Shown: piece after piece, positions 20,893-56,827 of the stretch
Position numbering within the stretch: position 1 is the stretch's first letter
How the letters are laid out: each line of letters begins with the position of its first letter
From: an uncultured bacterium
GTDB lineage: Bacteria; Desulfobacterota; Binatia; HRBIN30; CADEER01
Length of the DNA stretch: 64,000 nucleotides
Reading direction: 5' to 3'
NCBI GenBank assembly: GCA_963757755.1
Contig: CAVWTK010000007.1
Location: 132,629-196,628, forward strand
Notes under the pieces: generated by a model
Told to the model about the DNA's origin: nothing
Database searches by the model: none
Seen by the model: only the letters and a program-made list of their open reading frames with translations
Program-made: the position numbers and the translations under genes

Positions 20893-22432
20893 TCATCCAA
20901 AGACCTTACCGCAGAGACGCGGAGGCGCGGAGCTCGCAGCAGCTCGCTCGTCCGATCTCTGCGTCTCCGCGCCTCTGCGGTGGAGCTCTGAGCTCCCCGC
21001 GGCGTCGCGCGCGGGGCGTTCATAGCCGGGGCGTAAGGTCGACATGAAGGCGACCAGCGCGGTGACTTCCGCCGGCCGCAGATTCTTGCCGTAGGCGGGC
21101 ATGTTGCCGCCGCCCTGCAGGACCTGGCGGACCAGTTGATCGGGGGTCAGGCGCGTCGCGACGTCGTCGAGGGCCGGGCCGCGCATGCCGCCCTCCCCGC
21201 CCAGGCTGTGGCAATTGCGGCACTGCTTCGCTTGCAGGACGATGGCGCCCTGCAACTCGAGCGGGCCGCGGCTCTTGACGAACTTGACGGGCGTTGGCGC
21301 GCCGCTCCACGCGTCCATCACCGGCGACCACGGCGAGTAGGTCCCGAGCCAGGCGAGCACGCTGCAGCGTGAGCATGATGACGATGACGCTCAGCACCGC
21401 CACGGGACGCCGCCGCGCGCTCTTCTCGCCGGTGTTGGAGAGGAACGGCACCAGGAAGAGGATGATGATGCCGACCACCGGCGCGACGAGGATGAGGACC
21501 GTCTCCATGTACGGCGGCAGCAGCGCGAAGGCGGAGAACAGCGGCAGGAAGTAGAAGTCGGGCCGCGGGTTGGTCTCGATCAGGGTGGGATTGGGCGGGC
21601 CGTTCGGACCCGCGGGGCCGAAATAGGCGGCGCAGGCGAGGATCGCGAGGATCAGGAAGCCGGCGAAGACGAGGTCCTTGCCGATCGCGTGCGGCACGAA
21701 GGCACGCCCTCTTTCTTGAGGATCTCTTCGTACTCCTCGTGGTAGGTCGCCGGGTCCACCGGCACGCCCGGCCGCGGATACTCGTTGATGCCCGCCGCCA
21801 GCACGAGGCGCAGGTGCACGCTGATCATGGCGATGATCAGGCCCGGCAGGACGAAGACGTGCAGCGTGAAGAAGCGCGAGAGCGTCTCGCCGGCGATGAT
21901 CGGTCCGCCGAGCAGCAGCGACGTGAGCGCCGCGCCGAGCACCGGCGTGCGCGCGAGGATCGCCGTGCCGATGCCGAGGCCCCAGTAGGCGTCCTGGTCG
22001 AAGCGCAGCACCTGGCCGGTGAACGCCATGCCGAGCGCGCACAGGAAGAGCACGCAGCCGGTGATCCAGGTCAGCTCGCGCGGATACTTGAAGGCGCCGA
22101 ACAGGAACACCTGGATCATGTGCAGCGTCATGATCGCCACCATGAAGTTGGAGCCCCAGTTGTGGACGGCGCGCAGAAACCAGCCGAGGTACTGGTCGTA
22201 GTTGAGGAAGATCAGGCTCGTCCACGCCTGGTCCGCCGACGGCACGTACGTCAGCGACAGGCACATGCCGGTGACGATCTGGATGACGAAGCACAGCAGC
22301 GTGCCGCTGCCGAAGACGTAGAACCAGCTGCCGGAGCTCGCCGGCACACTGTGCCCGGCCGTCGACTCGAACAGCTTGCGTCAGGTGCAGGCGTTCGTCG
22401 AGCCAGACGGCGATGTTCTGAGCCAGGCGCAT
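20893..22432 (-). pseudogene. cytochrome b with fused C-terminal mono-heme cytochrome c domain, at least 3 frameshifts
   Basis: The start MRLAQNIAVWLDERLHL, the cyt b core in ORF 21652..22347 (FYVFGSGTLLCFVIQIVTG...HNWGSNFMVAIMTLHM), a subunit-IV-like part (PDFYFLPLF) in ORF 21020..22432, and a CRNCH heme site in ORF 20893..21360. The C-terminal tail runs into a hairpin repeat, so the stop is uncertain. Confidence 0.75.
20906..20983. repeat. octamer-armed hairpin, TTCACC family (CGCRGAG variant)
   Basis: ccgcagagacgcggaggcgcggag / ctctgcgtctccgcgcctctgcgg. It lies between the convergent MHS transporter and cyt b 3' ends. Confidence 0.8.
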
Positions 22433-23027: not shown

Positions 23028-23133
23028 TTCACCACGGAGGCGCGGAGACACGGAGATCTCGGCGCGCGGGTCCCTCTTATTTTTTGTCTTCGTCTTCATT
23101 CCGTTCTCCGGATCTCCGTGCCTCCGTGGTGAA
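23028..23133. repeat. octamer-armed hairpin, TTCACC family (CACGGAG units) with ~55-nt loop insert
   Basis: ttcaccacggaggcgcggagacacggag ... ctccgtgcctccgtggtgaa. It lies between the cyt c stop and the Rieske start. Confidence 0.8.
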
Positions 23134-26950: not shown

Positions 26951-27021
26951 TTCACCACGGAGGCACGGAGACACGGAGCTTGGCGGCATTGTTCTCCGTG
27001 TCTCCGTGCCTCCGTGGTGAA
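26951..27021. repeat. octamer-armed hairpin, TTCACC family (CACGGAG units), perfect copy
   Basis: ttcaccacggaggcacggagacacggag - 15 nt - ctccgtgtctccgtgcctccgtggtgaa. It lies between the cox2 stop and the cox1 start. Confidence 0.9.
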
Positions 27022-27032
27022 TTCTTTTGTCT

Positions 27033-30172: not shown

Positions 30173-32200
30173 TCACCGCGAGCGTCGCGCGGGTTGATCG
30201 CCGGCGGCCGGCGCGCAGGCAAACCGCTGCACGCGGCTGGTCTCGTCGGTGACCAGCACGTCGCCGTTCGCATCGACCGCCACCGCCGTGGCCAGGTTGA
30301 ACTGCCCATCGCTCGTGCCGCCGCCGCCCCAGGCGGTGACAAACGTTCCGCCGGCGGTGAACTCCTCGACGCGCTCGTTGCCGTCGTCGACGGCGAAGAC
30401 ATGGCCATCGCCACCCACCGCGACGGCGAGGGCGCCGATGAACTGCCCGTCGCCGCTGCCGGTGCCGCCCCACTGGCCGAGAAAGTCGCCGGTGGCGGTG
30501 AACTTCTGGATGCGATCGTTGAAGAAGTCGGCGACGAACACGTTCAGGTCGCGATCGACCGCGATGCCGAAGGGTTTGGCGAACTGCCCGTCGCCGCCGC
30601 CGACGGTCCCCCACTTGGCGAGGAAGGCGCCGGCGTTCGTGAACTTCTGGACGCGATTGTTGAAGCGATCGGCGACGTACACGTCACCGGTCGCGTCGAC
30701 CGCGACTCCCGCCGGTCCGATGAACTGCCCGTCGCCGGTACCGGCCTCTCCCCAACTGATCAGGAACCGCCCGTCGCTGTCGAACTTCTCGACCCGATTG
30801 TTGTTCAGGTCGGTGACGAAGACGTTGCCCGCCGCGTCGACCGCGATTCCCACCGGGGTGTGGAACTGCCCCTGCGCGCTGCCCATGCTGCCCCACTGGC
30901 GGAGCAACGTTCCCGCGCCGGTGAGCTTCTCGATGCGATGGTTGCCGGTGTCGGCGACGAACACGGTGCCGTTGCGATCCACCGCGATCGCCTCCGGATC
31001 GAAGAACTGCCCGTCCCCGCTGCCGCGGCTGCCGAACGCACCGCGGAAGGTGCCGCACGGGACCGTCGTCACGGCCGGCGTGGCCGTCGGGGTGTCGGTC
31101 GTCGCGGGCGTGCGCGTCGCCATGGCCGTCGGCCCGGACGTCTGGGTCGCGGTGCCGCTGACTCGCGTCGCGCTGCCGGTCGGCGCCGGCGGGCATCCGT
31201 TCAGCGCCGCCGAGACCGCCTCGACCAGACAGTCGATCGTCACCCGGCCCGTGCCATCGCAGTCGAAGGACGCGCAATGGTCGAGCGGCGCCGTGCCGAG
31301 AGCGATGTTGACGCCGTTCACCAGCTCGTCGACGGTGACCGCGCCGCTGTTGTCGCAGTCCCCGACGCACGGCGGCCTGGCGCCGTCATTCGGCAGCGCC
31401 GCGCGGGCCGTTGAGGCGACACCGGCTTCGAGCGCGAGCGCCAGGAGCGCGAACGGGCCGGCGCGTGGGCCACCGAGGGAGACGAACGCGCCGCCCCGCA
31501 CCAGCGTGCCGGGACTGTTCCGGGTCGTGCTCGCCCCGGCGAGGCACATGTCGTCATTGCTGAAACTGGCCCAGCCGACGCACGCCGTCGGGGATGGCAC
31601 CCAGTCCGCCACCCACTCGGCCAGATTGCCCACCATGTCGAAGGCTCCGCGCCCCGATACGCAGCTGCTGCGGGCGCCAGTCGGAGACCGCTCCTCGCTC
31701 GCGCTGTTGCAGTCCGTCGTCCCGTTGTCCGGGCCGGGGTCGGGGGTCCCATTCGCCCCCACCTGCCACTCCGCGTTCGTCGGCAGCCGCTTGCCGGCGT
31801 TGGCGCAGGCTTCCTGCGCCTGGAACCACGTCACGGAGGCGGACGGGACCACCGACGGCAGGCTCACCGCGTAGAGGTCGTGTGCGCAGTTCTGGCCGTT
31901 GTCCGCGCAGGGCGCGTAGTCGTCGCCCGAGGTGCCCAACTGCGTCGCCCCGCCGGCCACCAGGTCCGTCGGGGTCGCAATCCCCAACTGGATCCGCTTC
32001 ACCAGGGTCGCATTCGTCGTCGTTGCAGCGGGCACCCGCCAGACGCTCGCCTCGTACTTGTCCAGACACACCGTCCCGGCCACCACCGCGTCGGGCGCGC
32101 ACCTCCGAATCGGCAACGCGGGCAGCTCCGCCACCGCCGCGCGCCCCACGCCGACCGCCAGCCCCGCGGCAAGCCACATCGTCGTCAGAGTTCGCTGCAT
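30173..32200 (-). CDS. secreted FGE-sulfatase (SUMF1-like) domain / dockerin-like pair / 6x NHL-repeat protein
   Basis: ORF 30173..32278 trimmed to ATG 32200 (RBS ggaagga). It contains an FGE-like region (KRLPTNAEWQ...GNLAEWVADW) and two EF-hand-like loops (DCDNSGAVTVDEL, DCDGTGRVTIDCL). A Thr/Pro linker and six ~47-aa NHL repeats (GQF..P.GIAVD..GNVFV.D..N.R[IV][EQ]KF) follow. Confidence 0.75.
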   Translation of the reverse strand: MQRTLTTMWLAAGLAVGVGRAAVAELPALPIRRCAPDAVVAGTVCLDKYEASVWRVPAATTTNATLVKRIQLGIATPTDLVAGGATQLGTSGDDYAPCADNGQNCAHDLYAVSLPSVVPSASVTWFQAQEACANAGKRLPTNAEWQVGANGTPDPGPDNGTTDCNSASEERSPTGARSSCVSGRGAFDMVGNLAEWVADWVPSPTACVGWASFSNDDMCLAGASTTRNSPGTLVRGGAFVSLGGPRAGPFALLALALEAGVASTARAALPNDGARPPCVGDCDNSGAVTVDELVNGVNIALGTAPLDHCASFDCDGTGRVTIDCLVEAVSAALNGCPPAPTGSATRVSGTATQTSGPTAMATRTPATTDTPTATPAVTTVPCGTFRGAFGSRGSGDGQFFDPEAIAVDRNGTVFVADTGNHRIEKLTGAGTLLRQWGSMGSAQGQFHTPVGIAVDAAGNVFVTDLNNNRVEKFDSDGRFLISWGEAGTGDGQFIGPAGVAVDATGDVYVADRFNNRVQKFTNAGAFLAKWGTVGGGDGQFAKPFGIAVDRDLNVFVADFFNDRIQKFTATGDFLGQWGGTGSGDGQFIGALAVAVGGDGHVFAVDDGNERVEEFTAGGTFVTAWGGGGTSDGQFNLATAVAVDANGDVLVTDETSRVQRFACAPAAGDQPARRSR

Positions 32201-32513
32201 CGTCTTCCTTCCCCGATCGCCGTCGCGCCGCGTCCGGCTCCGCTTGGGGCCCCACTGCGCCAGCGCGTCGTCGCCCATCGCCAGGGATCACAGCGTAGGC
32301 GCCGGCCCGTCTGGGAGCGATGGCCGTCCGGTTAACTTCGCGGTTAGGATTGCTCCGCCGCGACGGCGTGGAGCCGCGGTCACGGAGGCCGGTGGCCCAC
32401 GCGGAAGTGGCCCCGGACCCGGCACCGTTACCCTCAATCTCCGGAGGGGCCACGCGGCCCGACCTGCGGCGGGATTTCCCCCTCCCCGCTCGTTCGTGCT
32501 CTCTTGAGGCTCG

Positions 32514-33533
32514 GTGATACGCGTCTCCCTTCCCGCGCGCATCAATGTCGTCGGCAGTCCGACCGACGCCTGCGAGGGCGCCTACGCCACCATCTCGGCG
32601 GCAGTCGAACGGCGCGGCGGCGCCGACATCGCGCCGGCGACGGGCGGCGAAGTGCCGCCGTCCGCGATCGTCGCCGCGGCCACGGCCGCCCTCTGCCGCT
32701 ACGTGCCCGAGCTGCCGGCCGCGATGGCGGCGCGGCCGGCGACGATCCGCACCTGGACGGACATCCCCGCCTCGAGCGGGCTCGGCGGCTCGTCGGTGCT
32801 GCTGTTGGCGGCGCTGGCGGCGTTGCGCGCCTTCTACGCGCTCGATGCGCGACGCTGGAACGACTACGCGCTGGCGGAGATCGCCCAGCGCGCCGAGGAA
32901 CGCGACCTCGGCGTGGTGTGCGGCTACGCCGACCGCTACGCGCCGCTCTTCGGCGACCTCGCCTACATCGCCTATCACGGCAAGCTCTGGCATGCGCCGC
33001 TCGGCGAGGAGCCCTACGCCACCTACGAGAAGCTCGGCACGCTGGTGCCGCCGCTGTCGTTCGTCGTCGCCACCACCGGCGTCGAGCGCCACTCCGGCGC
33101 CGTGCACGCGCCGATGCGCGCCAGGTATCTGCACGAGCGCCGCGCCGACCACGGGCCGCTGCTGGCCCTGGCGCGGCAGATGGGCGAGACGGCGTGGCGC
33201 GGCAAGATCGCCCTCCTCGCCCACGACCTCGCCGAGCTCGGCGAGCAGATCGACCGCAACCAGGCGCTGGTCGACCAGATGATGGAGGCCTGCGGCTTCG
33301 CCAGCGGCGCCGGCGACGAGGTCCGCGCCCTCGTCGCCGCCGCCCGCAGCGCGGGCGCCCTCGGGGCCAAGCTCACCGGCGCCGGCGGCGGCGGCGCCGT
33401 CTTCGCGCTGCCGCCGCCCGACGGCGACGAGCGCCTCGCCGACGCGCTGCGCACCTTCGCGGCGCGCGAAGGTCTGGCGAGCGAAGTGTTCGTCGTACCG
33501 GTAGCGCGCGACGGGTTGCGGATCGACAGATGA
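32514..33533 (+). CDS. GHMP-family sugar kinase
   Basis: PARINVVG, TDIPASSGLGGSSVLLLAAL (GHMP motif II), GAKLTGAGGGGAVFAL (motif III). GTG start. Confidence 0.75.
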   Translation: MIRVSLPARINVVGSPTDACEGAYATISAAVERRGGADIAPATGGEVPPSAIVAAATAALCRYVPELPAAMAARPATIRTWTDIPASSGLGGSSVLLLAALAALRAFYALDARRWNDYALAEIAQRAEERDLGVVCGYADRYAPLFGDLAYIAYHGKLWHAPLGEEPYATYEKLGTLVPPLSFVVATTGVERHSGAVHAPMRARYLHERRADHGPLLALARQMGETAWRGKIALLAHDLAELGEQIDRNQALVDQMMEACGFASGAGDEVRALVAAARSAGALGAKLTGAGGGGAVFALPPPDGDERLADALRTFAAREGLASEVFVVPVARDGLRIDR

Positions 33534-33539
33534 CGACCC

Positions 33540-33608
33540 TTCACCACGGAGACACGGAGGCACGGAGAGCCGCGCTTCGTCTCCGTGTCTCCGTGTCTCC
33601 GTGGTGAA
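33540..33608. repeat. octamer-armed hairpin, TTCACC family (CACGGAG units)
   Basis: ttcaccacggagacacggaggcacggag - 13 nt - ctccgtgtctccgtgtctccgtggtgaa. It starts 7 nt after the GHMP kinase stop and contains the nucleotidyltransferase GTG start. Confidence 0.9.
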
Positions 33609-34317
33609 GAATCCGGGAATCATTCTCGCCGCCGGCGCGGGGTCGCGGCTCGGCGAGCTCGGCGCGCGCCACTCGAAGGCGATGGTGCCCGTCGCGGGCC
33701 GGCCCCTGATCGACTGGGGGATCGAACGACTGCGCGCCGGCGGTGTCGGGTCGCTGATCGTGGTGCGCCATGCGTCGGACGACGCGCTCGCCGCCCACCT
33801 GCACGAGCGCTGGCCCGACGCGCGCATCGCCGTGCAGGAGGCGCGGCTGGGCATCGCCGACGCGCTGCGCCTCGCGCTGCCCCTCCTCGGCGACGCGCCG
33901 GGCTATCTCGCCTGCGCGTGCGACAGCCTCTTCGCGGCCGATGACGTCGCCGCGCTGATCGCGGCCGGCGCCGGCGGCGACGCCGTCGTCGGCGTGCTCG
34001 CGATGGGCGCGGCGGCGACCGCCGGGCGCAGCGCCGTGCAGGTGGAGGGCGATCGCATCGTCGCGATCGTCGAGAAGCCGGCGCCCGGAACGGTGCCGTC
34101 GGGATTGGTGGCGGCGCCGCTCTACTGGCTCCCGCGCACCGTCGACCGCCACCTCGCCGCCGACGCCGCGCAGGGCGCCGAGCGCTACGTCAGCGTCGCC
34201 CTCGCCGCCTACGTGCGCGCCGGCGGCGTCGTGCGCGCCGTGCGCGTGCGCGAACGGCTGGAGGTGACGACCGCCGCCGACGTCGCTGCCGTCGCCGCCG
34301 TGCTCGGCGGTCGCTGA
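33601..34317 (+). CDS. sugar-phosphate nucleotidyltransferase
   Basis: The N-terminal ILAAGAGSRLG...KAMVPVAGRPLI signature of NTP_transferase enzymes. The only possible starts (GTG 33601/33604) lie inside a hairpin arm. Confidence 0.7.
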   Translation: MVKNPGIILAAGAGSRLGELGARHSKAMVPVAGRPLIDWGIERLRAGGVGSLIVVRHASDDALAAHLHERWPDARIAVQEARLGIADALRLALPLLGDAPGYLACACDSLFAADDVAALIAAGAGGDAVVGVLAMGAAATAGRSAVQVEGDRIVAIVEKPAPGTVPSGLVAAPLYWLPRTVDRHLAADAAQGAERYVSVALAAYVRAGGVVRAVRVRERLEVTTAADVAAVAAVLGGR

Positions 34318-34988
34318 ACGCGGCGACCGTGCGACGACTCGCCTTCCCACATGCGGTAGCCGCCGATGAAGGCGTTGGCGTTGGTGCCGATCTCGACGCC
34401 CTTGGGAACCTCGTCGAGCTTCTTGGCGTTGCCGCCGCCGACGACGACGTAGTCGGCCTGCATCGCGGCGCGGAGTTGCGTGATCACCGCCGCGACCTCC
34501 TTGCGCCACTTCTTCTTGCCCAGGCGCTCGAGGCCGCGCAGCCCGACGTAGTCCTCGTAGGTTTTGCCCTTCTTGAACGGCAGATGCGCCAGCTCGAGCG
34601 GCTCGACGCTGCCGTCGATGACCAGCGCCGTGCCGAGGCCCGTGCCGAGGCCGAGGAACAGCATGCGTCCGCCCTTGTAGCTGCCGAGGGCCTGCATCGC
34701 GGCGTCGTTGAGGATGCGCACCGGCTGGCCGAACGCGCGCGCGAAGTCGAAGCCGACCCACCCGCGGCCCAGGTTGTGCGGCTCGAGGAGCGGCCGGTTG
34801 TGCAGCACCGGACCGGGGTAGCCCATCGACACGACGTCGTAGGTCCAGCCCGTTGCCAGCTTCTTGACCGCCGTCACCAAGCGGCGCGGCGTCAGCGTCG
34901 GCCCCGAGGGCACGGCGCGCTTCTCCGTCTGCCCGGTGGCGAGGATCTTCACGTTCGTCCCGCCGATGTCGACCGCCAGCACTCGCAT
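34209..34988 (-). CDS. ppgK: ROK-family glucokinase (polyphosphate/ATP glucokinase-like)
   Basis: MRVLAVDIGGTNVK, LGLGTGLGTALV, VVVGGGNAKKL. The last ~45 codons are low-complexity and overlap the convergent gene, so the true stop is uncertain. Confidence 0.7.
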   Translation of the reverse strand: MRVLAVDIGGTNVKILATGQTEKRAVPSGPTLTPRRLVTAVKKLATGWTYDVVSMGYPGPVLHNRPLLEPHNLGRGWVGFDFARAFGQPVRILNDAAMQALGSYKGGRMLFLGLGTGLGTALVIDGSVEPLELAHLPFKKGKTYEDYVGLRGLERLGKKKWRKEVAAVITQLRAAMQADYVVVGGGNAKKLDEVPKGVEIGTNANAFIGGYRMWEGESSHGRRVQRPPSTAATAATSAAVVTSSRSRTRTARTTPPART

Positions 34989-34999
34989 GGCCTCTCCTC

Positions 35000-35662
35000 T
35001 CACCGCACCCGTTCGCGTACGCCGTCGGCGCCCGCGATCACCACGCGCTCGACCATTGGCGCGAGGAAGAGTCCGTGCTCGACGATGCCGGGAATCGCCG
35101 CCAGGCGCGCGGCCAGCGGCGCCGGATCGGGAATGCGATCGAAGGCCGCGTCCATCAGCAGGTTGCCGTTGTCGCTGCGCGCCGCGCGCGTGGTGACGGC
35201 GCGCGCGCCGAGCGCCCGCACCTGCGCCGCGGCGACCGCGGGCGCGAAGGGCAGCACTTCCAGCGGCAGCGGGAAGACGCCGAGGGTCTCGACCATCTTC
35301 GCTTCGTCGACGACGACGATGAAGCGGCGCGCCATGGTGGCGATGATCTTCTCGCGCAGGTGCGCGCCGCCACCGCCCTTGATCAGATTGCAGCGCGCGT
35401 CCACCTCGTCGGCGCCGTCGATGGCGATGTCGAGCTCGAGCAACTCGTCCGGCGGCACGACCCGCAGGCCGCGCTCGGTCGCCAGCGCCCGCGTGCGCTC
35501 CGACGTCGCGGCGCACACGATGTCCGGCTTTCGCTCGCCGAGGGCGACGATGGTGAAGTGCACCGTCGAGCCTGTGCCGAGGCCGACGCGCATGCCGTCG
35601 GTCACGTAGTCCGCGGCCTTTCGGCCAGCCTGCTCCTTTGCAGCGGCGCGCCGATCAGACAT
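35000..35662 (-). CDS. rpiA: ribose-5-phosphate isomerase A
   Basis: GLGTGSTV, DIAIDGADEVD, LIKGGGGAHLREKI. Confidence 0.88.
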   Translation of the reverse strand: MSDRRAAAKEQAGRKAADYVTDGMRVGLGTGSTVHFTIVALGERKPDIVCAATSERTRALATERGLRVVPPDELLELDIAIDGADEVDARCNLIKGGGGAHLREKIIATMARRFIVVVDEAKMVETLGVFPLPLEVLPFAPAVAAAQVRALGARAVTTRAARSDNGNLLMDAAFDRIPDPAPLAARLAAIPGIVEHGLFLAPMVERVVIAGADGVRERVR

Positions 35663-35683
35663 TCCCGCTCTCGGGACCCGGAG

Positions 35684-35773
35684 AAGACAAAAGACAAAAG
35701 GCAAAAGACAAAAGGCCAAAGGTGAGGAGGGGCACTTTGGTTTGTCTTTTGCCTTTTGTCTTTTGCCTTTTGC
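35684..35773. repeat. octamer-armed hairpin, GACAAAAG units
   Basis: aagacaaaagacaaaaggcaaaagacaaaaggccaaagg - 12 nt - ctttggtttgtcttttgccttttgtcttttgccttttgc. It lies between the pgl stop and the rpiA start. Confidence 0.85.
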
Positions 35774-36472
35774 TCACCCCGCGCCTCCGACCGCGTCCCG
35801 ATCCGCCAGCAGAATCGCCCGCTCCTGCCGCACCCGGCCGCCTGGAATGGACGGATTGCCCGCGCGCAGCTTCGCCAGCGCGTCGACCTTCTCCGCGCCG
35901 GTGACGACCCAGAGGATCTGCCGGGCGCGGTCGATGAGCGGATAGGTCAGCGTCAGGCGACGCCGGTTCTGGTACGTGCCGGCGGTCGGCGCGACGTCGG
36001 CGGCGTGGACGCCGAGCACGGCGTCGTGCGGCACCAGGGAGGCGGTGTGGCCGTCGGGGCCGAGCCCGAGGTGGACGAGGTCGAGCACCGGCGGATCGCC
36101 GCACGCCGCGCGCAAGGTCGCGGCGTAGTCCTGCGCCGCGCGGTTCAGGTCGGCGTCATTGACGGGCATCGCGTGCACCTGCGCCGCGGGCAGCGGCACG
36201 GTGGCGAGCAGGCTCTCGCGCAGATGCGTGAGGTTGCGGTCGGGATCGCCGTCCGGCGCCACGCGCTCGTCGACCTGGAAGACGTCGACCCCCGGCCACG
36301 GCACGTCCTCGGCGGCCAGCAGGCGCAGCATCACCCACGGCGTGTGACCGCCGCTCACCGCGAAAGCAAAGCGCCCGCGCGCCTTCACCGCCTCGCGCGC
36401 CGCCGCCGCGATGATCTCCGCGGCGCGTTTCGCGACCGCGTCGGCGTTCTCGAGAATCTCAATCTGCATCAT
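35774..36472 (-). CDS. pgl: 6-phosphogluconolactonase
   Basis: FAVSGGHTP, FQVDERVAP, LGLGPDGHTASL. Confidence 0.88.
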   Translation of the reverse strand: MMQIEILENADAVAKRAAEIIAAAAREAVKARGRFAFAVSGGHTPWVMLRLLAAEDVPWPGVDVFQVDERVAPDGDPDRNLTHLRESLLATVPLPAAQVHAMPVNDADLNRAAQDYAATLRAACGDPPVLDLVHLGLGPDGHTASLVPHDAVLGVHAADVAPTAGTYQNRRRLTLTYPLIDRARQILWVVTGAEKVDALAKLRAGNPSIPGGRVRQERAILLADRDAVGGAG

Positions 36473-36523
36473 GCGCCTGCACCACAGCGACCGCGGAGGC
36501 CTGCGTGTTCCGCCGTGGTGATC

Positions 36524-37537
36524 CTACTTCTTCTCCAGGTGGCCGCCGAAGCCGAAGCGCATCGCCGAGAGCACCTTGTTGGCGAAGTCCGCCTCGCCGC
36601 GCGACTCGAAGCGGTCGAACAATGCAGCGCTGAGGACGTGCGCCGGGACGCCTTCGTCGATCGACGCCTGCAGCGTCCAGCGCCCCTCGCCGGAGTCGGA
36701 GACGTGACCGGCGAACTGCGCGAGCTGCGCGTCGCCGGCGAAGGCCTGCGCGGTGAGGTCGAGCAGCCACGACGCGACGACGCTGCCGCGGCGCCACACC
36801 TCGGCGACGTCGGCGAGGTTGAAGTCGTACTGGTAGTGCTCGGGATTGCGCAACGGCGTGGTCTCGGCGTCGACCGTCTGCGTGGCTTTGCCGACGTTGG
36901 CCTTGTGCAGGATGTTGAGGCCCTCGGCGTAGGCCGCCATGAGGCCGTACTCGATGCCATTGTGCACCATCTTCACGAAGTGCCCGGCGCCGTTGGGGCC
37001 GCAGTGCAGATAGCCGTTCTCGGCGGTGCTGCCGGTGATCTTCTCGCGCCCCGGCGTGCGCGGGGCGGAATCCATCGACGGGGCCAGCGCGGCGAAGATC
37101 GGATCGAGGTGCTGCACGATGTCGTTCTCGCCGCCGATCATCTGACAGTAGCCCCGCTCGAGCCCCCAGACGCCGCCGCTGGTGCCGCAGTCGACGTAGT
37201 GGATGCCCTTCGCCTTCAGCTCGCCGGCGCGGCGGATGTCGTCGATGTAGTAGGAGTTGCCGCCGTCGATGATGATGTCGCCGCGCTGCAGGCGGCTGCT
37301 CACGTCGGCCAACGTCTTGTCGACCACCGCCGCCGGCACCATGATCCAGGCGGCGCGCGGCGCCGTCAGCTTGGCCGCGAAGTCGTCGAGCGAGGTCGCG
37401 CCGACCGCGCCCTGTTTGACCAATCCCTGCACCGCCTCCGGCGACACATCGTACACCACGCACTGATGGCCCGCCTTCATGAGGCGCAACACCATGTTGG
37501 CGCCCATGCGCCCGAGACCGATCATGCCGAGTTGCAT
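36524..37537 (-). CDS. gnd: 6-phosphogluconate dehydrogenase (decarboxylating), short ~335-aa type
   Basis: [15 protein letters not shown] Rossmann motif, [17 protein letters not shown]-terminal ...[11 protein letters not shown]. Confidence 0.88.
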
Positions 37538-37603
37538 GTGAATCCTCCTTCGCAGACGGGAGCCTGCTAACTACCGCGCCGTCGGGGCGTGTCAAACGGA
37601 AAA

Positions 37604-37687
37604 GCGTGAGCCGGTGAGCCGGTATGCCGGTATGCCGGTGACGGGCTCCCGACTGGCGTACTGGCGCACCGGCTCACTGGCGCACGC
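37604..37687. repeat. octamer-armed hairpin, GTGAGCCG/GTATGCCG units
   Basis: gcgtgagccggtgagccggtatgccggtatgccggtgac ... tggcgtactggcgcaccggctcactggcgcacgc. Pairing is imperfect. It lies between fdhD and gnd, and the right arm overlaps the last fdhD codons. Confidence 0.65.
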
Positions 37688-38498
37688 GGTTCCTCTGCCC
37701 GTAGACGTTGAACCGCTCTCCCCTCGCGAAGCCGATCAGCGCGATGCCGGCGCGCTCGGCGAGGTCGACGGCGAGAGACGTCGGTGCGGAGACGGCGGCG
37801 ACGATGGGGATGCGCGCGGCGAGCGCCTTCTGCGCGATCTCGAAGGAGATGCGGCCGGAGACGGCGAGGACGTGACCGGTGAGCGGCAGCGCGCCGCGGG
37901 CCATCGCCCAGCCGATGACCTTGTCGACGGCGTTGTGGCGGCCGACGTCCTCGCGCACGGCACGGACCGCGCCGGCCACGGTGAAGAGTCCGGCCGCATG
38001 CAGGCCGCCGGTCGCGGCGAACGCCGGCTGCGCGGCGGCGAGTTGCGCCATCACGGCGCGCACGACGTCGGGCGCGACGGTGGTCGGGTCGTCGAGCGGC
38101 GGCGCCACCGCCAACGCCTGCTCGATGCTGGCCTTGCCGCAGATCCCGCAGCTGGCGCTGGTGAACAGGTGGCGGCGCAGCGACTCGAGGTCGAGCGCGA
38201 CGTCGTCGCGCAGACTGACGGCGATGACATTGTCCTCGGCGTCCGGATGCTCGACGATGCGGCAGTGCCGCACGGCCGTGATCTCGTCCGCACCGCGCAC
38301 GATCCGCTCGGTGACGAGGAAGCCGCGCGCCAGCTCCTCGTCGTGGCCGGGCGTACGCATGAGCACGGCCATCGGCACGCCCCGCACCTGGATCTCGAGC
38401 GGCTCCTCGCACGCGACCGCATCGCGATCCGCCGACGCGCCCGCCGCCGCGACGCGGGTCAGCGCGACGGTGCGGATGGCATCGCCCTCGTCCTCCAT
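37674..38498 (-). CDS. fdhD: formate dehydrogenase accessory sulfurtransferase FdhD
   Basis: The lower part of ORF 37674..39875. SASCGICGKASIE and DVGRHNAVDKVIG. ATG at 38498. Confidence 0.85.
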   Translation of the reverse strand: MEDEGDAIRTVALTRVAAAGASADRDAVACEEPLEIQVRGVPMAVLMRTPGHDEELARGFLVTERIVRGADEITAVRHCRIVEHPDAEDNVIAVSLRDDVALDLESLRRHLFTSASCGICGKASIEQALAVAPPLDDPTTVAPDVVRAVMAQLAAAQPAFAATGGLHAAGLFTVAGAVRAVREDVGRHNAVDKVIGWAMARGALPLTGHVLAVSGRISFEIAQKALAARIPIVAAVSAPTSLAVDLAERAGIALIGFARGERFNVYGQRNRVRQ

Positions 38499-38530
38499 AT
38501 CCGGTCCTATGCCACGCGATCCGCGGCGCG

Positions 38531-39709
38531 TCAGCTCGGCGCGGGCAGCCCGCGCTGGTCGGCGGCGCGCACCACGGCGTCGAGATAGGCGAGCGTGGCG
38601 TCGAGCGCTTCGCGGTCGACGCGGTCGGGCGAGTCGGTGGCGGCGTGCATGCCGCGCGGCAGCGCGTGGCCGGGGAGATCGCTGACCAGCGTCAGGGCCG
38701 GGATGCCGTACGCGAGGAAGGATCGCGCATCGGTCGCGGCGCCGTACCACGTCACGTACAGCGGCTTCTGGCGCTGCTGGTGGTGGACGGCATCGAGCAG
38801 CCCGAGCAGCCGCGGATCGGGTGGGAACGACCGCAGCGAGAACTTCTCGCTGCCGAACGTCGCGAGGTCGGGCGACGCGCCGATGAACTCGAGATTCACC
38901 ACGGCCGTCGGGAGGTCGGGCGGAGCGCTGAAGCGCTGCCGCGCGTACTCCCACGACCCGTGGACCCCGATCTCCTCGCCGGAGAGCAGCGCGATCTCCA
39001 CCTCGGTACGCGGCAGCGGTCCGGCCGCGTGCAGGCGTTCGGCGAGGCGGAGCAGCACCGCGACGGCGGCGCCGTCGTCGAGCGCGCCCGGGCTGCGCGC
39101 CGGTACGAGGGCACCGGCGCTGAGCGAGGCGAAGAGGCCGAGGCCGTAGAGGGGCGCCGTCCAGACGGCGATGCGGGCGACCCGCGGCAGCGGTCCGGTC
39201 CGGTGGCGGCGGCGCGCCGCCCAGGCCGCGGCGACGATCATGAGCGCCGTCACCGGCAGGCCGAGCAGCTCGATCGGCGCGCGCTGCACGTGGTCGAGGA
39301 GGTCGGTCTTGGTGTCGTAGTGCGCCGACAGGATCAGCCGCTGCGTCGCCTGCTGGGCCGGCAGGCGGGCGACGACGTGATGCTGCGGCGTCGCGCCGAT
39401 CCAGGAGACGATCGGCACGTAGCGGTCGAGCTCGAGCAGGAGCAGCGCCGGCATGCCGACGGCGATGAACAGCGCGCCCAGCGGACGGCGCCGCCGCAGG
39501 CACCACGCATAGAGCAGGCCGCCGAGCAGCGCGAGCGCGCCGGCGAGGCGCAGCCGGTAGGGATGCGCGGTGTAGGCGACCGTGGTGACGTCGAGTCCGA
39601 GGTGCTGCAGGGTCTCGACCAACCACGCCGCCGTGTCGTGGATCGCCGCCGTGCCATTCTCGCGCGGCTGTTCGGTCAGCCGCGGCAGCAGGTCGGACCA
39701 GGCGAGCAT
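38531..39709 (-). CDS. membrane-anchored M28-family peptidase
   Basis: ORF 38531..39826 trimmed to ATG 39709. AHYDTKTD, LLSGEEIGVHGSW, several TM helices in the middle. Confidence 0.65.
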   Translation of the reverse strand: MLAWSDLLPRLTEQPRENGTAAIHDTAAWLVETLQHLGLDVTTVAYTAHPYRLRLAGALALLGGLLYAWCLRRRRPLGALFIAVGMPALLLLELDRYVPIVSWIGATPQHHVVARLPAQQATQRLILSAHYDTKTDLLDHVQRAPIELLGLPVTALMIVAAAWAARRRHRTGPLPRVARIAVWTAPLYGLGLFASLSAGALVPARSPGALDDGAAVAVLLRLAERLHAAGPLPRTEVEIALLSGEEIGVHGSWEYARQRFSAPPDLPTAVVNLEFIGASPDLATFGSEKFSLRSFPPDPRLLGLLDAVHHQQRQKPLYVTWYGAATDARSFLAYGIPALTLVSDLPGHALPRGMHAATDSPDRVDREALDATLAYLDAVVRAADQRGLPAPS

Positions 39710-39893
39710 GTCGGTCACACCGCCCCGTCGACGACCGGCTCGCGCCCGCTGATGGAGCTGAAGTAGAACTCGACGCGCCGCGAGTCGTCCGCCATGGCCC
39801 GCTGTATGCCGGGCGCAGCGCGGCATTCAAGCGCGGCGGCAGAAGCGAACGCGCTCCGCGGCGCGCGCCAGACATTCACCGGAGGAGTCATCG

Positions 39894-41006: not shown

Positions 41007-41039
41007 CAGCGCCGCGCCCGCGCGACACACAACGGCGTC

Positions 41040-42080: not shown

Positions 42081-42108
42081 CCGCGGCCGCGCGGCCGTCC
42101 GGGCGACC

Positions 42109-44453: not shown

Positions 44454-44590
44454 GCCGTTGCCCCCCTCGGATCGGTTACCACGACACGCCGCCCAATCGA
44501 AGCCACTGATTCGTCACCGGCGGCGACCCCCGCGTCCGTGTCCATCCGTGGCTCCGCCTTCCTTGCAAGCAACGCATACCCTCTGGTAAC

Positions 44591-45347: not shown

Positions 45348-45422
45348 GATGGCGATGGCTTGTGGCGCGTGGCCAGAAGTCAGACTGCCCTTCAGGCCAC
45401 CCACCACCCGCCACGAGCCATC
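45348..45422. repeat. repeat-armed hairpin, GATGGC/GTGGCG units
   Basis: gatggcgatggcttgtggcgcgtggcc - 20 nt - ggccacccaccacccgccacgagccatc. It lies between the MerB-like gene and ACAD. Confidence 0.6.
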
Positions 45423-46621: not shown

Positions 46622-46707
46622 ACGTGCTGATGTGCTGACGTGCGGACGTGCTGACGTGACCTAGAGCCAGCGAACCTCAGTACGTCAGTACGTCAGCACG
46701 TCAGCAC
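46622..46707. repeat. octamer-armed hairpin, ACGTGCTG units
   Basis: acgtgctgatgtgctgacgtgcggacgtgctgacgtgac - 16 nt - tcagtacgtcagtacgtcagcacgtcagcac. It lies between the two adjacent ACAD genes. Confidence 0.85.
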
Positions 46708-49164: not shown

Positions 49165-49887
49165 ATGGCCGACGGTAGACGACGCGTCTGGAACGGCTTG
49201 GCGGTCCTGACAGTTGCAGGCGTGTTGGCGTCATTCGCCAACACCGCGCAGTCCGGCAACATCGGCTGCCTCAACAACTCCGACTGCGGCTGCGTGTCGC
49301 AGAACTGCACCGCGCCGGGTGACGGCGGCTTCTGCCTGAACGGCACCTGTCAGTGCAACCCGGGCTATCTGCCACCGTTGTGCGAACCCTCCGGTGCGTG
49401 TTGCGGCGTCTCCATTTGCGCCCAGGGCGCCGCGGCTGGCCAGGCGCAGGCCGTCTGCGCTCAGGTCGCCGCCTGCACCGAGTTGACCCAGGCCACATGC
49501 GCGCTCTTCAACGGCACCTTCGCCGGCACCAACACCACATGCGGGTCCGGCATCTGCGACTGCGACGGCACGTCGACAGCGACGGCAACGTCGACAGCGA
49601 CGGCCACCAACACCGCGACGTCAACCTCGACGGCGACGCCCGTCCCGCAGGGCGGCGGCTGCATGGACACCTCGCAATGCGATCCGGGCCTCACGTGCAG
49701 CGACGCGGTGTGCTGCAATGTGCCGTGTACGGCGCCGGGCTTCGACTGCAACCTGCCCGGTCAGGTCGGCACCTGCGCCGCCATCCCGGCAGCCCCCGCA
49801 CCCGCCGCGTCGAACACCGGACTGCTGCTGATGCTGGGCGCGCTGCTGGCGGTGGCGGGCGGAGCGTTGGTGTTGAAGAAAAGATGA
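49165..49887 (+). CDS. secreted Cys-rich protein with Thr-rich spacer and C-terminal hydrophobic anchor/sorting-like tail
   Basis: ORF 49126..49887 trimmed to ATG 49165 (RBS ggaggg). About 30 Cys in EGF-like spacing. The tail is IPAAPAPAASNTGLLLMLGALLAVAGGALVLKKR. Confidence 0.6.
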   Translation: MADGRRRVWNGLAVLTVAGVLASFANTAQSGNIGCLNNSDCGCVSQNCTAPGDGGFCLNGTCQCNPGYLPPLCEPSGACCGVSICAQGAAAGQAQAVCAQVAACTELTQATCALFNGTFAGTNTTCGSGICDCDGTSTATATSTATATNTATSTSTATPVPQGGGCMDTSQCDPGLTCSDAVCCNVPCTAPGFDCNLPGQVGTCAAIPAAPAPAASNTGLLLMLGALLAVAGGALVLKKR

Positions 49888-49951
49888 AGGTCAAGGGATG
49901 AAGGACGAACGATAGAGACGTTCGTCCTTCATTCCTTCGTCTTTCATCCTC
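49883..49951. repeat. octamer-armed hairpin, GATGAAGG units
   Basis: gatgaaggtcaagggatgaaggacgaacg - 7 nt - cgttcgtccttcattccttcgtctttcatcctc. It spans the gap between convergent stops and overlaps both stop codons. Confidence 0.8.
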
Positions 49952-56751: not shown

Positions 56752-56827
56752 TTCACCACGGAGGCACGGAGCCACGGAGAAATCCCGTTCTAGGTTTTGC
56801 CTCCGTGTCTCCGTATCTCCGTGGTGA
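56752..56827. repeat. octamer-armed hairpin, TTCACC family (CACGGAG units)
   Basis: ttcaccacggaggcacggagccacggag - 21 nt - ctccgtgtctccgtatctccgtggtga. It lies between the sufB stop and the sufC start. Confidence 0.85.

What the first reader, a model, noticed from the sequence alone, without database searches (positions are those of the whole stretch)
35684..35773. Sequence-unrelated hairpins built to the same octamer-repeat plan
At least five more intercistronic hairpins have arms made of 3-4 tandem 7-8-nt units, but with different unit sequences. The units are GACAAAAG (35684-35773, pgl|rpiA), ACGTGCTG (46622-46707, ACAD|ACAD) and GTGAGCCG/GTATGCCG (37604-37687, fdhD|gnd). They also include GATGAAGG (49883-49951, between convergent stops) and GATGGC/GTGGCG (45348-45422, MerB-like|ACAD). 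Stems are about 25-38 bp and loops 7-20 nt. Several units are far more AT-rich than the roughly 70% GC background. Fragments of these unit types (tttgtcttcgtcttcatt) also occur inside or next to TTCACC-family copies at 23077-23100 and 27022-27040. What is conserved is the architecture (periodicity, length, placement), not the sequence. That points either to a common generating mechanism, such as slippage-driven expansion mirrored onto both arms or a structure-specific mobile element, or to selection for a register-tolerant long stem. I cannot name a described element class with this design.
Basis: seen in the sequence. Interest (0 to 1): 0.65.

Follow-up and report, generated by a model that had tools for sequence, protein, structure and literature searches.

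The report
Intergenic hairpins with tandem-repeat arms
The gaps between genes in this soil bacterium (probably Candidatus Binatia) hold long DNA/RNA hairpins whose two arms are runs of a repeated 7-8-base unit; the design is real and non-random, occurs in several phyla and in phages, and was noted in 2009 in Geobacter as untested "regulator binding sites", so it is a poorly understood known kind rather than a new one.

Summary
All five hairpins fold far better than shuffles (z -3.9 to -7.1). A (7-nt unit, not 8), B and C (8-nt) have clearly periodic arms; D and E are marginal. Such hairpins occur at about 11 per 100 kb here and in close relatives, against 0.2 per 100 kb in 1.8 Mb of other genomes and none in shuffles. 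They sit between a stop codon and the next gene.

At the same gap, relatives carry the same hairpin with one unit more or fewer, a hairpin with an unrelated unit, or none. Slippage is therefore shown. Immediate mirroring onto the other arm is not.

Some unit families are dispersed: TTCACC-(CACGGAGR)n, (GGAYGAA)n and GTTGYC. They occur in other phyla and in real phage contigs, sometimes nested inside each other. B and C were found only at their own locus.

The class has a precedent. Geobacter metallireducens "class 1-3" paired tandem octa/heptanucleotide sites include class 2, TCTCCGTS[Y], which is the window's TTCACC family. Xanthomonas has inverted (GGGAATC)n pairs.

Best reading: REP-like palindromic microsatellites, remodelled by slippage and spread by an unknown route. 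They probably act as intercistronic mRNA stem-loops. Function is untested.

The parts
35684..35773 (.). Hairpin A. Arms 35684-35722 and 35741-35773 hold about 5 tandem heptamers (GACAAAA/GGCAAAA). It fills 90 of the 111 nt between the pgl stop (35774) and the rpiA start (ATG at 35662). GC content is 42%.
46622..46707 (.). Hairpin B. Arms of about 4 tandem octamers (ACGTGCTG / TCAGCACG). It starts 4 nt after the stop of the first acyl-CoA dehydrogenase gene (46618) and ends 3 nt before the GAGGGAG ribosome-binding site of the next gene (ATG at 46725).
37598..37693 (.). Hairpin C. Arms of 4 tandem octamers (GTGAGCCG/GTATGCCG). The arm nearest fdhD includes that gene's last codons and its stop codon (37674-37676, minus strand).
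49883..49951 (.). Hairpin D, of the GGAYGAA heptamer family and only marginally periodic. It exactly fills the space between two convergent stop codons (49885-49887 on + and 49950-49952 on -). It is the only one of the five that looks like an intrinsic terminator.
45348..45422 (.). Hairpin E (GATGGC-type units, marginal periodicity). It lies between the stop of the MerB-like gene (45341) and the ribosome-binding site of the ACAD gene (ATG at 45437).
20908..20981 (.). TTCACC-family hairpin, CGCRGAGR variant, between convergent genes.
23028..23133 (.). TTCACC-family hairpin (CACGGAGR units) between a cytochrome c gene and a Rieske gene. Its 48-nt loop holds a solo GAAGAC-type half-array at 23080-23102.
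26951..27021 (.). TTCACC-family hairpin in the COX2|COX1 gap, orthologous to L083 17133-17201. Both arms are identical between the two (57/57 bases) while the loop and flanks are unrelated. A solo GAAGAC-type fragment follows at 27022-27040.
33539..33609 (.). TTCACC-family hairpin between the GHMP kinase and NTP transferase genes. In L083 and L084 these two genes overlap by 4 nt and there is no hairpin.
36480..36523 (.). Small, decayed TTCACC-type hairpin in the gnd|pgl gap. It is better preserved in L081 and L084 and absent in L082. By itself it is not significant (z = -1.1).
56753..56827 (.). TTCACC-family hairpin 8 nt after the sufB-type stop codon.
60701..60780 (.). TTCACC-family hairpin, CGCAGAGR variant, in the suf cluster, 6 nt after a TGA stop codon.
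35000..38498 (-). Pentose-phosphate gene run on the minus strand, in transcription order: fdhD (37674-38498), hairpin C, gnd (36524-37537), small T hairpin, pgl (35774-36472), hairpin A, rpiA (35000-35662). Every intercistronic gap holds a hairpin.

Best explanation
The five hairpins, and the TTCACC family next to them, belong to one loosely defined class: intergenic palindromes whose arms are inverted arrays of a 6-10-nt unit, mostly 7-8 nt. I call them palindromic microsatellites or REP-like elements.

Shown:
- (1) They are DNA-level repeats that change by replication-type slippage of whole units on one arm at a time.
- (2) They turn over fast at a given gap. They can be present, absent, or replaced by a hairpin with an unrelated unit. 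The boundaries fall exactly at the upstream stop codon and at the ribosome-binding site or start of the next gene.
- (3) Some unit families are dispersed in many copies, are shared between phyla and occur in phages. These are TTCACC-(CACGGAGR)n, (GGAYGAA)n and GTTGYC. They therefore spread like REP or MITE elements.
- (4) The arms of the TTCACC family are held constant in sequence while the loop and flanks drift.

Inferred:
- The two arms are kept complementary by selection for pairing and/or by intra-palindrome templated correction.
- The elements persist only in the gap between a stop codon and the next ribosome-binding site. A compact stem-loop there does not disturb the flanking genes.
- On the polycistronic mRNA they act as long (25-57 bp) intercistronic stem-loops. 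Likely roles are a 3'-exonuclease barrier or an RNase III-type processing site that uncouples the stability of neighbouring cistrons.

The route of spread and any trans-acting partner remain unknown.
For: Non-randomness and enrichment.

Position: 33 of 53 periodic hairpins have the stop codon of a 100-aa or longer open frame within -20 to +12 nt of the stem foot, against 14% for random placements. Every gap of the fdhD-gnd-pgl-rpiA run holds a hairpin. So does every gap of the terminase-portal module in phage contig L192.

Slippage:
- (GGATGAA)5 versus (GGATGAA)6 in otherwise identical phage contigs L269 and L275/L303/L308.
- Window hairpin C versus L081: one 8-nt unit fewer on one arm, with nearly identical flanks.
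- L189 versus L190: one extra 7-nt unit plus homogenised units on one arm.

Turnover:
- The gap after the MerB-like gene holds GATGGC, CACGAAGRM, CGTTGYC, GTTGTCR, GACRACA or GGTCCCT hairpins, a plain GC-rich hairpin, or nothing.
- The pgl|rpiA gap differs between relatives in the same way.
- Phages L189 and L190 are 91-93% identical. One shared gap holds TAGTCGR units in one and CAGCYRT units in the other, and the alignment breaks exactly at the stop codon and at the ribosome-binding site.

Dispersal:
- Four CGTTGTC hairpins with unrelated loops lie within 20 kb of L087.
- Six or seven TTCACC copies lie in the window.
- The CACGGAGR triple array occurs in 35 IMG/VR contigs. Those contigs also carry 21 periodic hairpins of other unit types.
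- (GGATGAA)n hairpins occur in 18 of 79 phage loci.
- Variants occur in Pirellulales, Bryobacteraceae and Chthoniobacterales contigs.
- The same unit, TCTCCGTS[Y], is in Geobacter metallireducens (PMC2700814).

Nested composites: TTCACC arms on the outside with arrays of other units inside.

Arm constancy: at the orthologous COX2|COX1 gap of the window and L083, the arms are 57/57 identical. Coding sequence is 80-84% identical, spacers 31-47% and the loop 21%.
Against: - No transposase, no target-site duplication and no conserved termini were found for the non-TTCACC families.
- Loops differ completely between copies of one family. A simple cut-and-paste or copy-paste element would not give that.
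- B- and C-type units were found only at their own locus in everything sampled. C's array begins inside the fdhD coding end. Both fit growth in place better than insertion.
- Nothing supports RNA function directly. Free energy and G:U counts show no sense/antisense asymmetry.
- Only D has a T-rich tail.
- Some relatives have a 4-12-nt gap or overlapping genes at the same junction. A hairpin there is therefore not essential.
Confidence: 0.45

Rival explanations
1. The arms are arrays of protein-binding sites on double-stranded DNA. Each arm would be a row of 3-5 recognition motifs, placed as an inverted pair at variable distance. They would be bound by a nucleoid or global regulator, or by a transposase-like protein. 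This is the reading of Aklujkar et al. 2009, who proposed IHF/HU for the Geobacter class 1-3 sites. On this view the hairpin potential is incidental.
For: - The TTCACC-family arms are conserved base for base at an orthologous site while everything around them has drifted. The same 26-nt core recurs in contigs with 58-70% GC from different taxa.
- The R/Y variable position does not covary between the arms: 13 of 24 are Watson-Crick pairs, against 11.1 expected.
- Spacing between the arms ranges from 11 to about 170 nt.
- Within a family, units keep a 4-5-nt core and vary in the other 2-3 positions, for example CAGC-NNT, CGTT-NNC and GAAG-NNA.
Against: - More than 20 unrelated unit families share the design and occur together in single contigs. 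That would need as many binding specificities.
- The window has no match to the IHF consensus WATCAANNNNTTR.
- A 7-8-bp spacing does not put successive motifs on one face of the helix.
- Stems extend into copy-specific flanks and into stop codons. That argues for pairing, not only motifs.
- Units come and go by slippage without visible constraint on their number.
Confidence: 0.2
2. These are purely functional RNA stem-loops: terminators without a U-tract, RNase III sites or mRNA stabilisers. Each would have evolved in place under selection for a long stem. The periodic arms would be only the cheapest mutational route to a long stem, namely unit duplication on both arms, in lineages with high slippage. 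No mobility is involved.
For: - They occupy exactly the space between the stop codon and the next ribosome-binding site. They are present in every gap of an operon and of a phage late-gene module.
- A hairpin is retained at the gap after the MerB-like gene in many lineages although its sequence differs.
- C's array is seeded from the fdhD coding end.
- B and C are private to their loci in the sample.
- Compensated A:T/G:C unit differences separate window hairpin A from L082.
Against: - Identical 28-nt arms occur at unrelated loci, in different phyla and in phages. Convergence cannot explain that.
- Nested composites of the same inner family occur inside different outer families.
- There is no strand asymmetry of G:U against A:C.
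- The hairpins are dispensable in close relatives.
- Solo arrays of the same units exist in the phage contigs.
Confidence: 0.2
3. The hairpins are classical non-autonomous transposons, either MITEs or RAYT-mobilised REP/REPIN elements. Each family would be moved by a cognate transposase encoded elsewhere in the genome.
For: - Multi-copy families, presence/absence polymorphism and clean replacement at one site.
- The TTCACC...GGTGAA termini look like terminal inverted repeats. Phage copies are 150-190 bp, the size of a MITE.
- In Geobacter, IS110-family elements (ISGme8/ISGme9) sit at a fixed distance from class 1 sites, as IS110 elements do with REPs.
Against: - No target-site duplication at the one filled-versus-empty comparison.
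- No GTAG/CGTC head as in RAYT-type REPs (sequences).
- No transposase among about 40 window proteins scanned.
- Internal sequences differ completely between copies.
- Stems continue outward into copy-specific complementary sequence. A transposon insertion does not produce that.
Confidence: 0.12
4. The pattern is chance or an assembly artefact.
For: The window shows several apparent frameshifts, so its assembly is not error-free.
Against: - Ten shuffles of the window (640 kb) contain no such hairpin.
- The same hairpins occur at the same gaps in independent assemblies from JGI, ENA, NCBI and IMG/VR.
- Differences between relatives are whole 7- or 8-nt units, not homopolymer errors.
Confidence: 0.01

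Closest known systems
Geobacter metallireducens 'putative global regulator / IHF-HU binding sites', classes 1-3 (Gmet_I1xx-I3xx; Aklujkar et al. 2009, BMC Microbiol 9:109, PMC2700814)
   Same: - Each site is 3-5 tandem octa- or heptanucleotides: class 1 GTTGCTYN x4, class 2 TCTCCGTS[Y] x3, class 3 MTYCTGA x5.
- Sites come in pairs on opposite strands at variable distance.
- There are several classes per genome, and some sites belong to two classes at once.
- They lie 3' of genes or between co-directional genes, for example pdhA|pdhB and proB|proA.
- Class 2 has the same unit as the window's TTCACC family (YCTCCGTG = reverse complement of CACGGAGR).
- The GTTGYC units seen in L087, L083 and L115 resemble class 1. 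That is a resemblance only and was not aligned.
   Different: - The units of A, B, C and E are new sequences, in a different phylum.
- The Geobacter authors read the sites as double-stranded binding sites and did not discuss hairpins, slippage, turnover or phages.
- Their function is untested.
- The Geobacter sequences themselves could not be read here, because the alignments are figures.
Xanthomonas (GGGAATC)n heptamer arrays in inverted pairs (Rehm et al. 2015, PLoS One, PMC4692102); long simple-sequence repeats (LSSRs) with 5-11-nt units in general (Mrazek et al. 2007, as cited there and in PMC4679880)
   Same: - Intergenic tandem heptamers, typically about 4 units.
- 70-75 inverted pairs per genome that can form stem-loops.
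- Repeat length differs between related species at orthologous sites, while the type (single or paired) is kept.
- No link to IS elements.
   Different: - There is one G-rich unit per genome, interpreted as G-quadruplex forming.
- Here many unrelated units coexist, most cannot form G4 structures, and almost all period-7/8 arrays in the window are paired.
REP / BIME / REPIN elements of Proteobacteria (with RAYT transposases)
   Same: - Multi-copy extragenic palindromes.
- Located between co-directional or convergent genes, close to stop codons.
- Used as insertion targets by IS110-type elements.
- Thought to stabilise upstream mRNA.
- Evolve within genomes as selfish DNA (PMC3116915, PMC3733652, PMC8266576, listed; REP biology from own knowledge).
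   Different: - A REP arm is itself a short imperfect palindrome with a conserved GTAG/CGTC head.
- Here an arm is a non-palindromic tandem array, no such head is present and no RAYT was seen.
Foldback / Galileo transposons of Drosophila (terminal inverted repeats built of tandem units)
   Same: Inverted arms made of tandem short units. Arm length varies by unit number (PMC3573991, PMC4079207, listed; own knowledge).
   Different: They are eukaryotic, kilobase-scale and transposase-encoding or transposase-dependent. This is an analogy of design only.
RNase III processing hairpins between cistrons of phage T7 and bacterial operons
   Same: Stems of 20 bp or more placed between cistrons, in both phage and host operons, with little sequence conservation (own knowledge).
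   Different: They are not periodic and not multi-copy families. Cleavage is demonstrated there and untested here.

Membership tests
Geobacter-type paired tandem-repeat sites (Aklujkar 2009, classes 1-3) | Each site is 3-5 tandem units of 7-8 nt | tested here: met
   A has 5 x 7 nt, B 4 x 8 nt, C 4 x 8 nt and the TTCACC copies 3 x 8 nt. D and E are marginal (p=0.04).
Geobacter-type paired tandem-repeat sites (Aklujkar 2009, classes 1-3) | Two sites on opposite strands (an inverted pair) at variable distance | tested here: met
   Loops are 7-48 nt in the window and up to about 130-170 nt in phage contigs.
Geobacter-type paired tandem-repeat sites (Aklujkar 2009, classes 1-3) | Class 2 unit consensus TCTCCGTS[Y] | tested here: met
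   Met by the TTCACC family, for example TCTCCGTG x3 at 33579-33603. Not met by A-E, which would be further classes.
Geobacter-type paired tandem-repeat sites (Aklujkar 2009, classes 1-3) | Many copies of each class in one genome | tested here: inconclusive
   The TTCACC family has 6-7 copies in 64 kb. A-E have one copy each in the window and the rest of the genome is not available. D- and A-type hairpins exist elsewhere; B and C types were not found elsewhere.
Geobacter-type paired tandem-repeat sites (Aklujkar 2009, classes 1-3) | Bound by IHF/HU or another global regulator (the authors' hypothesis) | not testable with these tools
   Only a proxy was possible: the IHF consensus WATCAANNNNTTR has 0 matches in the window.
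Inverted LSSR pairs (Xanthomonas type, Rehm 2015) | Intergenic tandem 5-11-nt units in convergent pairs, with unit number varying between relatives | tested here: met
Inverted LSSR pairs (Xanthomonas type, Rehm 2015) | G-tracts able to form G-quadruplexes | tested here: not met
   The units GACAAAA, ACGTGCTG, GTGAGCCG, GGAYGAA and CACGGAGR have no GGG runs.
REP/REPIN with RAYT | Conserved GTAG or CGTC tetranucleotide at the foot; each REP is itself a short palindrome | tested here: not met
   The feet read TTCACC (TTCACC family) or are family-specific. The arms are tandem arrays, not palindromes.
REP/REPIN with RAYT | A RAYT (Y1 transposase) gene in the genome | not testable with these tools
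   About 40 window proteins were scanned with Pfam and none is a transposase. The rest of the genome is not available.
MITE | Terminal inverted repeats plus a target-site duplication | tested here: inconclusive
   The TTCACC family has TTCACC...GGTGAA ends. The filled-versus-empty comparison at 33539 shows no clear duplication beyond a TGA that is part of the terminus.
MITE | Presence/absence polymorphism at orthologous sites | tested here: met
Intrinsic (Rho-independent) terminator | GC-rich stem followed by a T/U run | tested here: not met
   In 33000-51000 only D is flagged, and its 'tail' is part of the arm.
RNase III substrate | About 20 bp or more of near-perfect double-stranded RNA | tested here: met
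   The minimum-free-energy structures have 26-43 pairs. Cleavage itself is not testable here.
Any Rfam family | Score at or above the family's gathering threshold | tested here: not met
   In the window only the tmRNA passes. The hairpins give sub-threshold hits to eukaryotic miRNA-precursor models (38 bits or less, against thresholds of 85-103). In the 12 other loci scanned only Acido-Lenti-1 passes, and it lies away from the hairpins.

The most novel reading that the evidence does not exclude
The hairpins are products and substrates of one unidentified hairpin-specific machinery that reads structure and periodicity rather than sequence. It could be an HUH/IS200-like, IS110-linked or polymerase-type activity. 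It would be shared by bacteria of at least five phyla and by their phages. It would create new unit families from local seeds such as gene 3' ends, copy one arm onto the other, and place the elements between a stop codon and the next start. A related reading is that the perfect stem brings the stop and start codons together at its foot. An insertion would then remain translationally silent, because coupling is kept across the stem.
Probability: 0.12. Interest if true: 0.85.

Novelty: new member of a known kind. Interest (0 to 1): 0.55.

Why it matters
The design has been seen before but never explained. It was annotated as "putative IHF binding sites" in one Geobacter genome paper and read as G-quadruplex repeats in Xanthomonas.

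This window and its relatives show that it is general:
- Many unrelated unit families follow one plan.
- They occur together in single genomes and in phages.
- They change by whole units and are replaced at the same gene junction within closely related lineages.
- One family (CACGGAGR / TCTCCGTG) is kept base for base across phyla.

That points to an unrecognised, widespread class of non-coding element sitting at operon junctions. The same family exists in the cultivable, genetically tractable G. metallireducens, so its function and mode of spread can be tested directly.

Practical consequences:
- These hairpins break short-read assemblies. Contigs L081 and L086 end at or inside them.
- They can shift predicted gene ends and starts.

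Tried and rejected
- **RNA-strand selection:** free energy and G:U counts were compared on the sense and antisense strands for 27 hairpins. There is no consistent asymmetry.
- **'Unit variants differ only by transitions':** rejected. Within arms there are 158 transitions and 270 transversions. Arm-to-arm mismatches are 85 transition-type and 72 transversion-type.
- **Mirrored order of unit variants:** observed matches are 1162, against a permutation mean of 1096. With 3-4 units per arm the test has little power and is biased by the choice of register. Only L190 5797-5856 is a perfect four-variant mirror.
- **Covariation at the TTCACC family's R/Y position:** none.
- **Rfam:** nothing at gathering thresholds, and only generic miRNA-like hits at E<1.
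- **IHF consensus:** absent from the window.
- **Terminator scan:** only D is flagged.
- **Exact-protein look-up of the window's pgl:** not on record, so the source genome itself could not be fetched. The nearest GTDB species representative has only 77% Gnd identity.
- **BLAST of a TTCACC-type element against GenBank phages and PLSDB plasmids:** no match. This is uninformative because the low-complexity filter masks tandem repeats.
- **Literature search by sequence strings:** nothing relevant. Mrazek 2007 is not held.
- **In-place origin of the L081 unit from the 'empty' L083 gap (TGAAGGACGA):** left open. The same 13-mer also occurs in window hairpin D, so it may be a remnant of a dispersed family.
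Full report
**1. The observation**

The window has 69.5% GC. Its closest relatives are metagenomic contigs and MAGs labelled Candidatus Binatia. Its Pgl protein is 97-80% identical to many of them, and P0031 carries that name. The best species representative in GTDB has only 77% Gnd identity.

- As RNA they fold with dG of -44 to -78 kcal/mol.
- As single-stranded DNA their z-scores against dinucleotide shuffles are -6.8 (A), -6.1 (B), -7.1 (C), -6.6 (D) and -3.9 (E).

Arm periodicity is strong for three and marginal for two.
- A has period 7, so it is a heptamer (GACAAAA/GGCAAAA), not an octamer.
- B has period 8 (ACGTGCTG) and C has period 8 (GTGAGCCG/GTATGCCG).
- For A, B and C autocorrelation is 0.84-0.96, with p=0.002 against shuffled arms.
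- D and E reach only 0.67, with p=0.04.

All ten period-8 runs of at least 24 nt in the window lie in hairpin arms.

Pfam confirms the gene contexts. On the minus strand the order is fdhD, hairpin C, gnd, a small decayed TTCACC-type hairpin at 36480-36523, pgl, hairpin A, rpiA. Every junction of this gene run therefore holds a hairpin.

**2. More than chance, and lineage-specific**

One detector was used throughout: stem of at least 22 nt, at least 80% complementary, the same period 6-10 on both arms, and shuffle p of 0.02 or less. Periodic-arm hairpins per 100 kb:
- window: 10.9
- seven close relatives: 13.3
- 429 kb of more distant relatives of the MerB-like locus: 0.23
- 1.37 Mb around gnd in 80 diverse genomes: 0.22
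- 640 kb of shuffled window: 0

The three hits in the diverse set are all CGCRGAG-type hairpins, in a Pirellulales contig and a Bryobacteraceae contig.

Of 53 periodic hairpins, 33 have the stop codon of a long open frame within -20 to +12 nt of the stem foot. Random placements give 14%. In the window the stems start 0-9 nt after the stop or include it. C contains the last codons of fdhD. D exactly fills the space between two convergent stop codons.

**3. Orthologous gaps**

pgl|rpiA gap:
- L082 (Pgl 86% identical) has the same GGCAAAA hairpin as the window. The loop differs and some unit differences are compensated A:T/G:C changes.
- L081 (97%) has a period-7 hairpin with other units (GGAYGAA / CCGTCGT).
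- L083 has a 12-nt gap, and in L084 the two genes overlap.

fdhD|gnd gap: L081 has hairpin C with nearly identical flanks but one 8-nt unit fewer on one arm only. L084 has no hairpin.

Gap after the MerB-like gene: across 80 metagenomic relatives, different lineages carry GATGGC-, CACGAAGRM-, CGTTGYC-, GTTGTCR-, GACRACA- or GGTCCCT-unit hairpins, a plain GC-rich hairpin, or nothing. In each case the element runs from the stop codon to the next ribosome-binding site.

Phage contigs L189 and L190 are 91-93% identical.
- One AGCNNTC hairpin differs by one extra 7-nt unit and by homogenised units on one arm.
- One gap holds a TAGTCGR hairpin in L189 and a CAGCYRT hairpin in L190. The alignment breaks exactly at the stop codon and at the ribosome-binding site.

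Contigs L269 and L275/L303/L308 differ by (GGATGAA)5 versus (GGATGAA)6 and by almost nothing else.

Unit-number change by slippage is therefore shown. It happens on one arm at a time.

**4. Families**

The 'sequence-unrelated' hairpins are not all private to one locus.
- D belongs to a (GGAYGAA)n family. This family forms hairpins in 18 of 79 phage loci that hold the array.
- A-type hairpins occur in 2 of 50 loci.
- GTTGYC-unit hairpins occur four times within 20 kb of L087, with unrelated loops and 3-6 units. They also occur in L083 and L115.
- B- and C-type units were found as hairpins only at their own or the orthologous locus. Only 64 kb of this genome is visible, however.
- C's array begins in the conserved coding end of fdhD (..RVRQ*), and the motif GTGCGCCA recurs 16 nt downstream. 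This fits growth in place.

The neighbouring TTCACC family is widespread.
- The triple array CACGGAGR occurs in 35 IMG/VR contigs with 39-70% GC.
- Five proteins from three of these contigs (L168, L190, L192) match capsid, portal or terminase families, so at least those are real phages.
- Those 35 contigs also carry 21 periodic hairpins of other unit types in 334 kb. Examples are AGTTGCG, CGTTTCN, CAGCNNT, GTCGAYG, GAAGGNA, AACGGTTT and CGCGAAGGA.
- In L192 every gap of the terminase-portal module holds one.
- Many phage copies are 150-190 bp long and are composites. The TTCACC arms are outside and a second pair of arrays with another unit is inside. The same inner family (GCAGATNNAC) lies inside two different outer families.
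- Some stems continue outward into copy-specific complementary sequence.

**5. Sequence constraint on the TTCACC arms**

The copy at 26951-27021 lies in the COX2|COX1 gap, as does L083 17133-17201. Identity between the two loci by segment:
- flanking coding sequence: 80-84%
- spacers: 31-47%
- loop: 21%
- both arms: 57 of 57 bases identical

The variable eighth position (R/Y) does not covary between the arms. For this family something holds the sequence itself, not only the pairing. That could be a trans-acting partner, or homogenisation from a shared pool.

At 33539 the element separates two genes that overlap by 4 nt (GTGA) in L083 and L084. The downstream GTG start now appears to lie in the element's terminal GGTGAA. 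No clear target-site duplication is visible.

**6. What did not show up**
- No sense/antisense asymmetry of stability or of G:U pairs.
- No T-run except at D.
- No Rfam family.
- No IHF consensus.
- No transposase among about 40 window proteins.

**7. Comparison with what is known**

*Geobacter metallireducens.* Aklujkar et al. [quoted passage not shown]
- Class 1: four tandem octanucleotides GTTGCTYN, 24 pairs. IS110-family ISGme8/ISGme9 elements sit at a fixed distance from some of them.
- Class 2: three tandem repeats TCTCCGTS[Y], 21 pairs.
- Class 3: five tandem heptanucleotides MTYCTGA, 8 pairs.
- Four sites belong to classes 1 and 2 at once.
- In their table the pairs lie 3' of genes or between co-directional genes, for example the pyruvate dehydrogenase E1 alpha and beta genes.

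Class 2 is the reverse complement of the window's CACGGAGR unit. The TTCACC family is therefore a known, if uncharacterised, element.

*Xanthomonas.* Rehm et al. 2015 (PMC4692102) found about 185 (GGGAATC)n arrays per genome, with 70-75 inverted pairs. Lengths vary between species, and the authors interpreted the arrays as G-quadruplex formers.

*Other classes.*
- REP/REPIN elements are the nearest well-studied class, but their defining GTAG/CGTC head and self-palindromic arm are not met here.
- MITE criteria are only partly met.
- Drosophila Foldback/Galileo elements are an analogy of design only.

**8. Most likely mechanism**

Shown:
- whole-unit slippage on single arms
- rapid gain, loss and replacement confined to the space between a stop codon and the next ribosome-binding site
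- multi-copy families shared across phyla and with phages
- nesting of one family inside another
- sequence constancy of the TTCACC arms

Inferred:
- The arms are kept complementary by selection and/or templated correction.
- The elements are tolerated, or useful, because they fold into compact stem-loops at operon junctions.
- On mRNA they probably act as exonuclease barriers or RNase III-type sites.

I put 0.45 on this composite reading. The rivals are:
- 0.20: double-stranded protein-binding arrays, the Geobacter authors' idea. Its best support is the constancy of the TTCACC arms and the lack of covariation.
- 0.20: purely local functional RNA hairpins.
- 0.12: classical transposase-driven MITE or REP elements.
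- about 0.01: chance or artefact.

**9. Verdict**

The class is not new, but it is nearly unstudied. The breadth seen here makes it worth a dedicated study: many families built to one plan, phage carriage, and turnover at single junctions. G. metallireducens offers a tractable system for that study.

Noticed in passing
window 3183-3534 (-): A tmRNA gene (Rfam RF00023, 170.6 bits). It is the only Rfam family above threshold in the window.
   Followed up: no
window 45437-46618; 46711-47949; 24682-26178; 55442-56827: Several housekeeping genes look frameshifted.
- The first ACAD gene is split into an N/M part and a C part in different frames.
- The second ACAD gene starts at ATG 46725, but its domains lie in the frame of 46711-47949.
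- One ORF carries a COX1 fragment plus COX3.
- SufB is split.
- There is a 1-nt indel relative to L083 in COX1.
This suggests indel errors in the assembly, or pseudogenes.
   Followed up: partly
window 8733-8864, 54534-54649 (also L083 313-362); 15131-15238, 19322-19489; 28138-28234 (also L087 14591-14688): Three further families of GC-rich, non-periodic palindromic repeats: GGAGGGCCGCGCTCCCGCGCGGCC, AGGAGCGCGGGCCTCC and GTGGAGTGCGGCGCG. They look like ordinary REP-type elements and coexist with the periodic hairpins.
   Followed up: no
window 33531-33625: The TTCACC hairpin separates the GHMP kinase and NTP transferase genes, which overlap by GTGA in L083 and L084. The downstream GTG start now seems to lie in the element's terminal GGTGAA. 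Stop and start codons therefore sit at the two feet of the stem.
   Followed up: partly
window 26951-27021 versus L083 17133-17201: These are orthologous TTCACC hairpins in the COX2|COX1 gap. The arms are 57/57 identical, the loop 21%, the spacers 31-47% and the coding sequence 80-84%.
   Followed up: yes
window 30298-31033: A 141-nt tandem repeat (about 5 copies, 67-70% matches) lies inside the gene at 30173-32278 (-). It corresponds to NHL / beta-propeller repeats of the protein.
   Followed up: partly
L166/L191/L192, L168, L171 (IMG/VR phage contigs): Composite hairpins of 150-190 bp. The outer arms are CACGGAGR or CACAGAGGM units. The inner arms are a second unit family (GCAGATNNAC, AGTTTCN, AATTTNN). 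L166, L191 and L192 are overlapping pieces of one phage, 100% identical.
   Followed up: partly
L169 3283-6708; L189 172-259; L173 775-822 and 3027-3082: Long unpaired heptamer arrays lie in the same phage contigs, for example (CACGCCT)9, (AACCGCG)6(AACCAAG)4 and (TTCGACT)8. Solo arrays and inverted pairs therefore coexist there, unlike in the window.
   Followed up: no
L081 (contig end at 2425) and L086 (contig end at 1607): Short-read metagenome contigs end just after (L081) or inside (L086) a periodic hairpin. This suggests that these elements break assemblies.
   Followed up: no
L168 3218-3263 (+): An Acido-Lenti-1 RNA (RF01687, 54.1 bits) lies in a phage contig that also carries TTCACC-type hairpins. 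This hints at an acidobacterial host.
   Followed up: no
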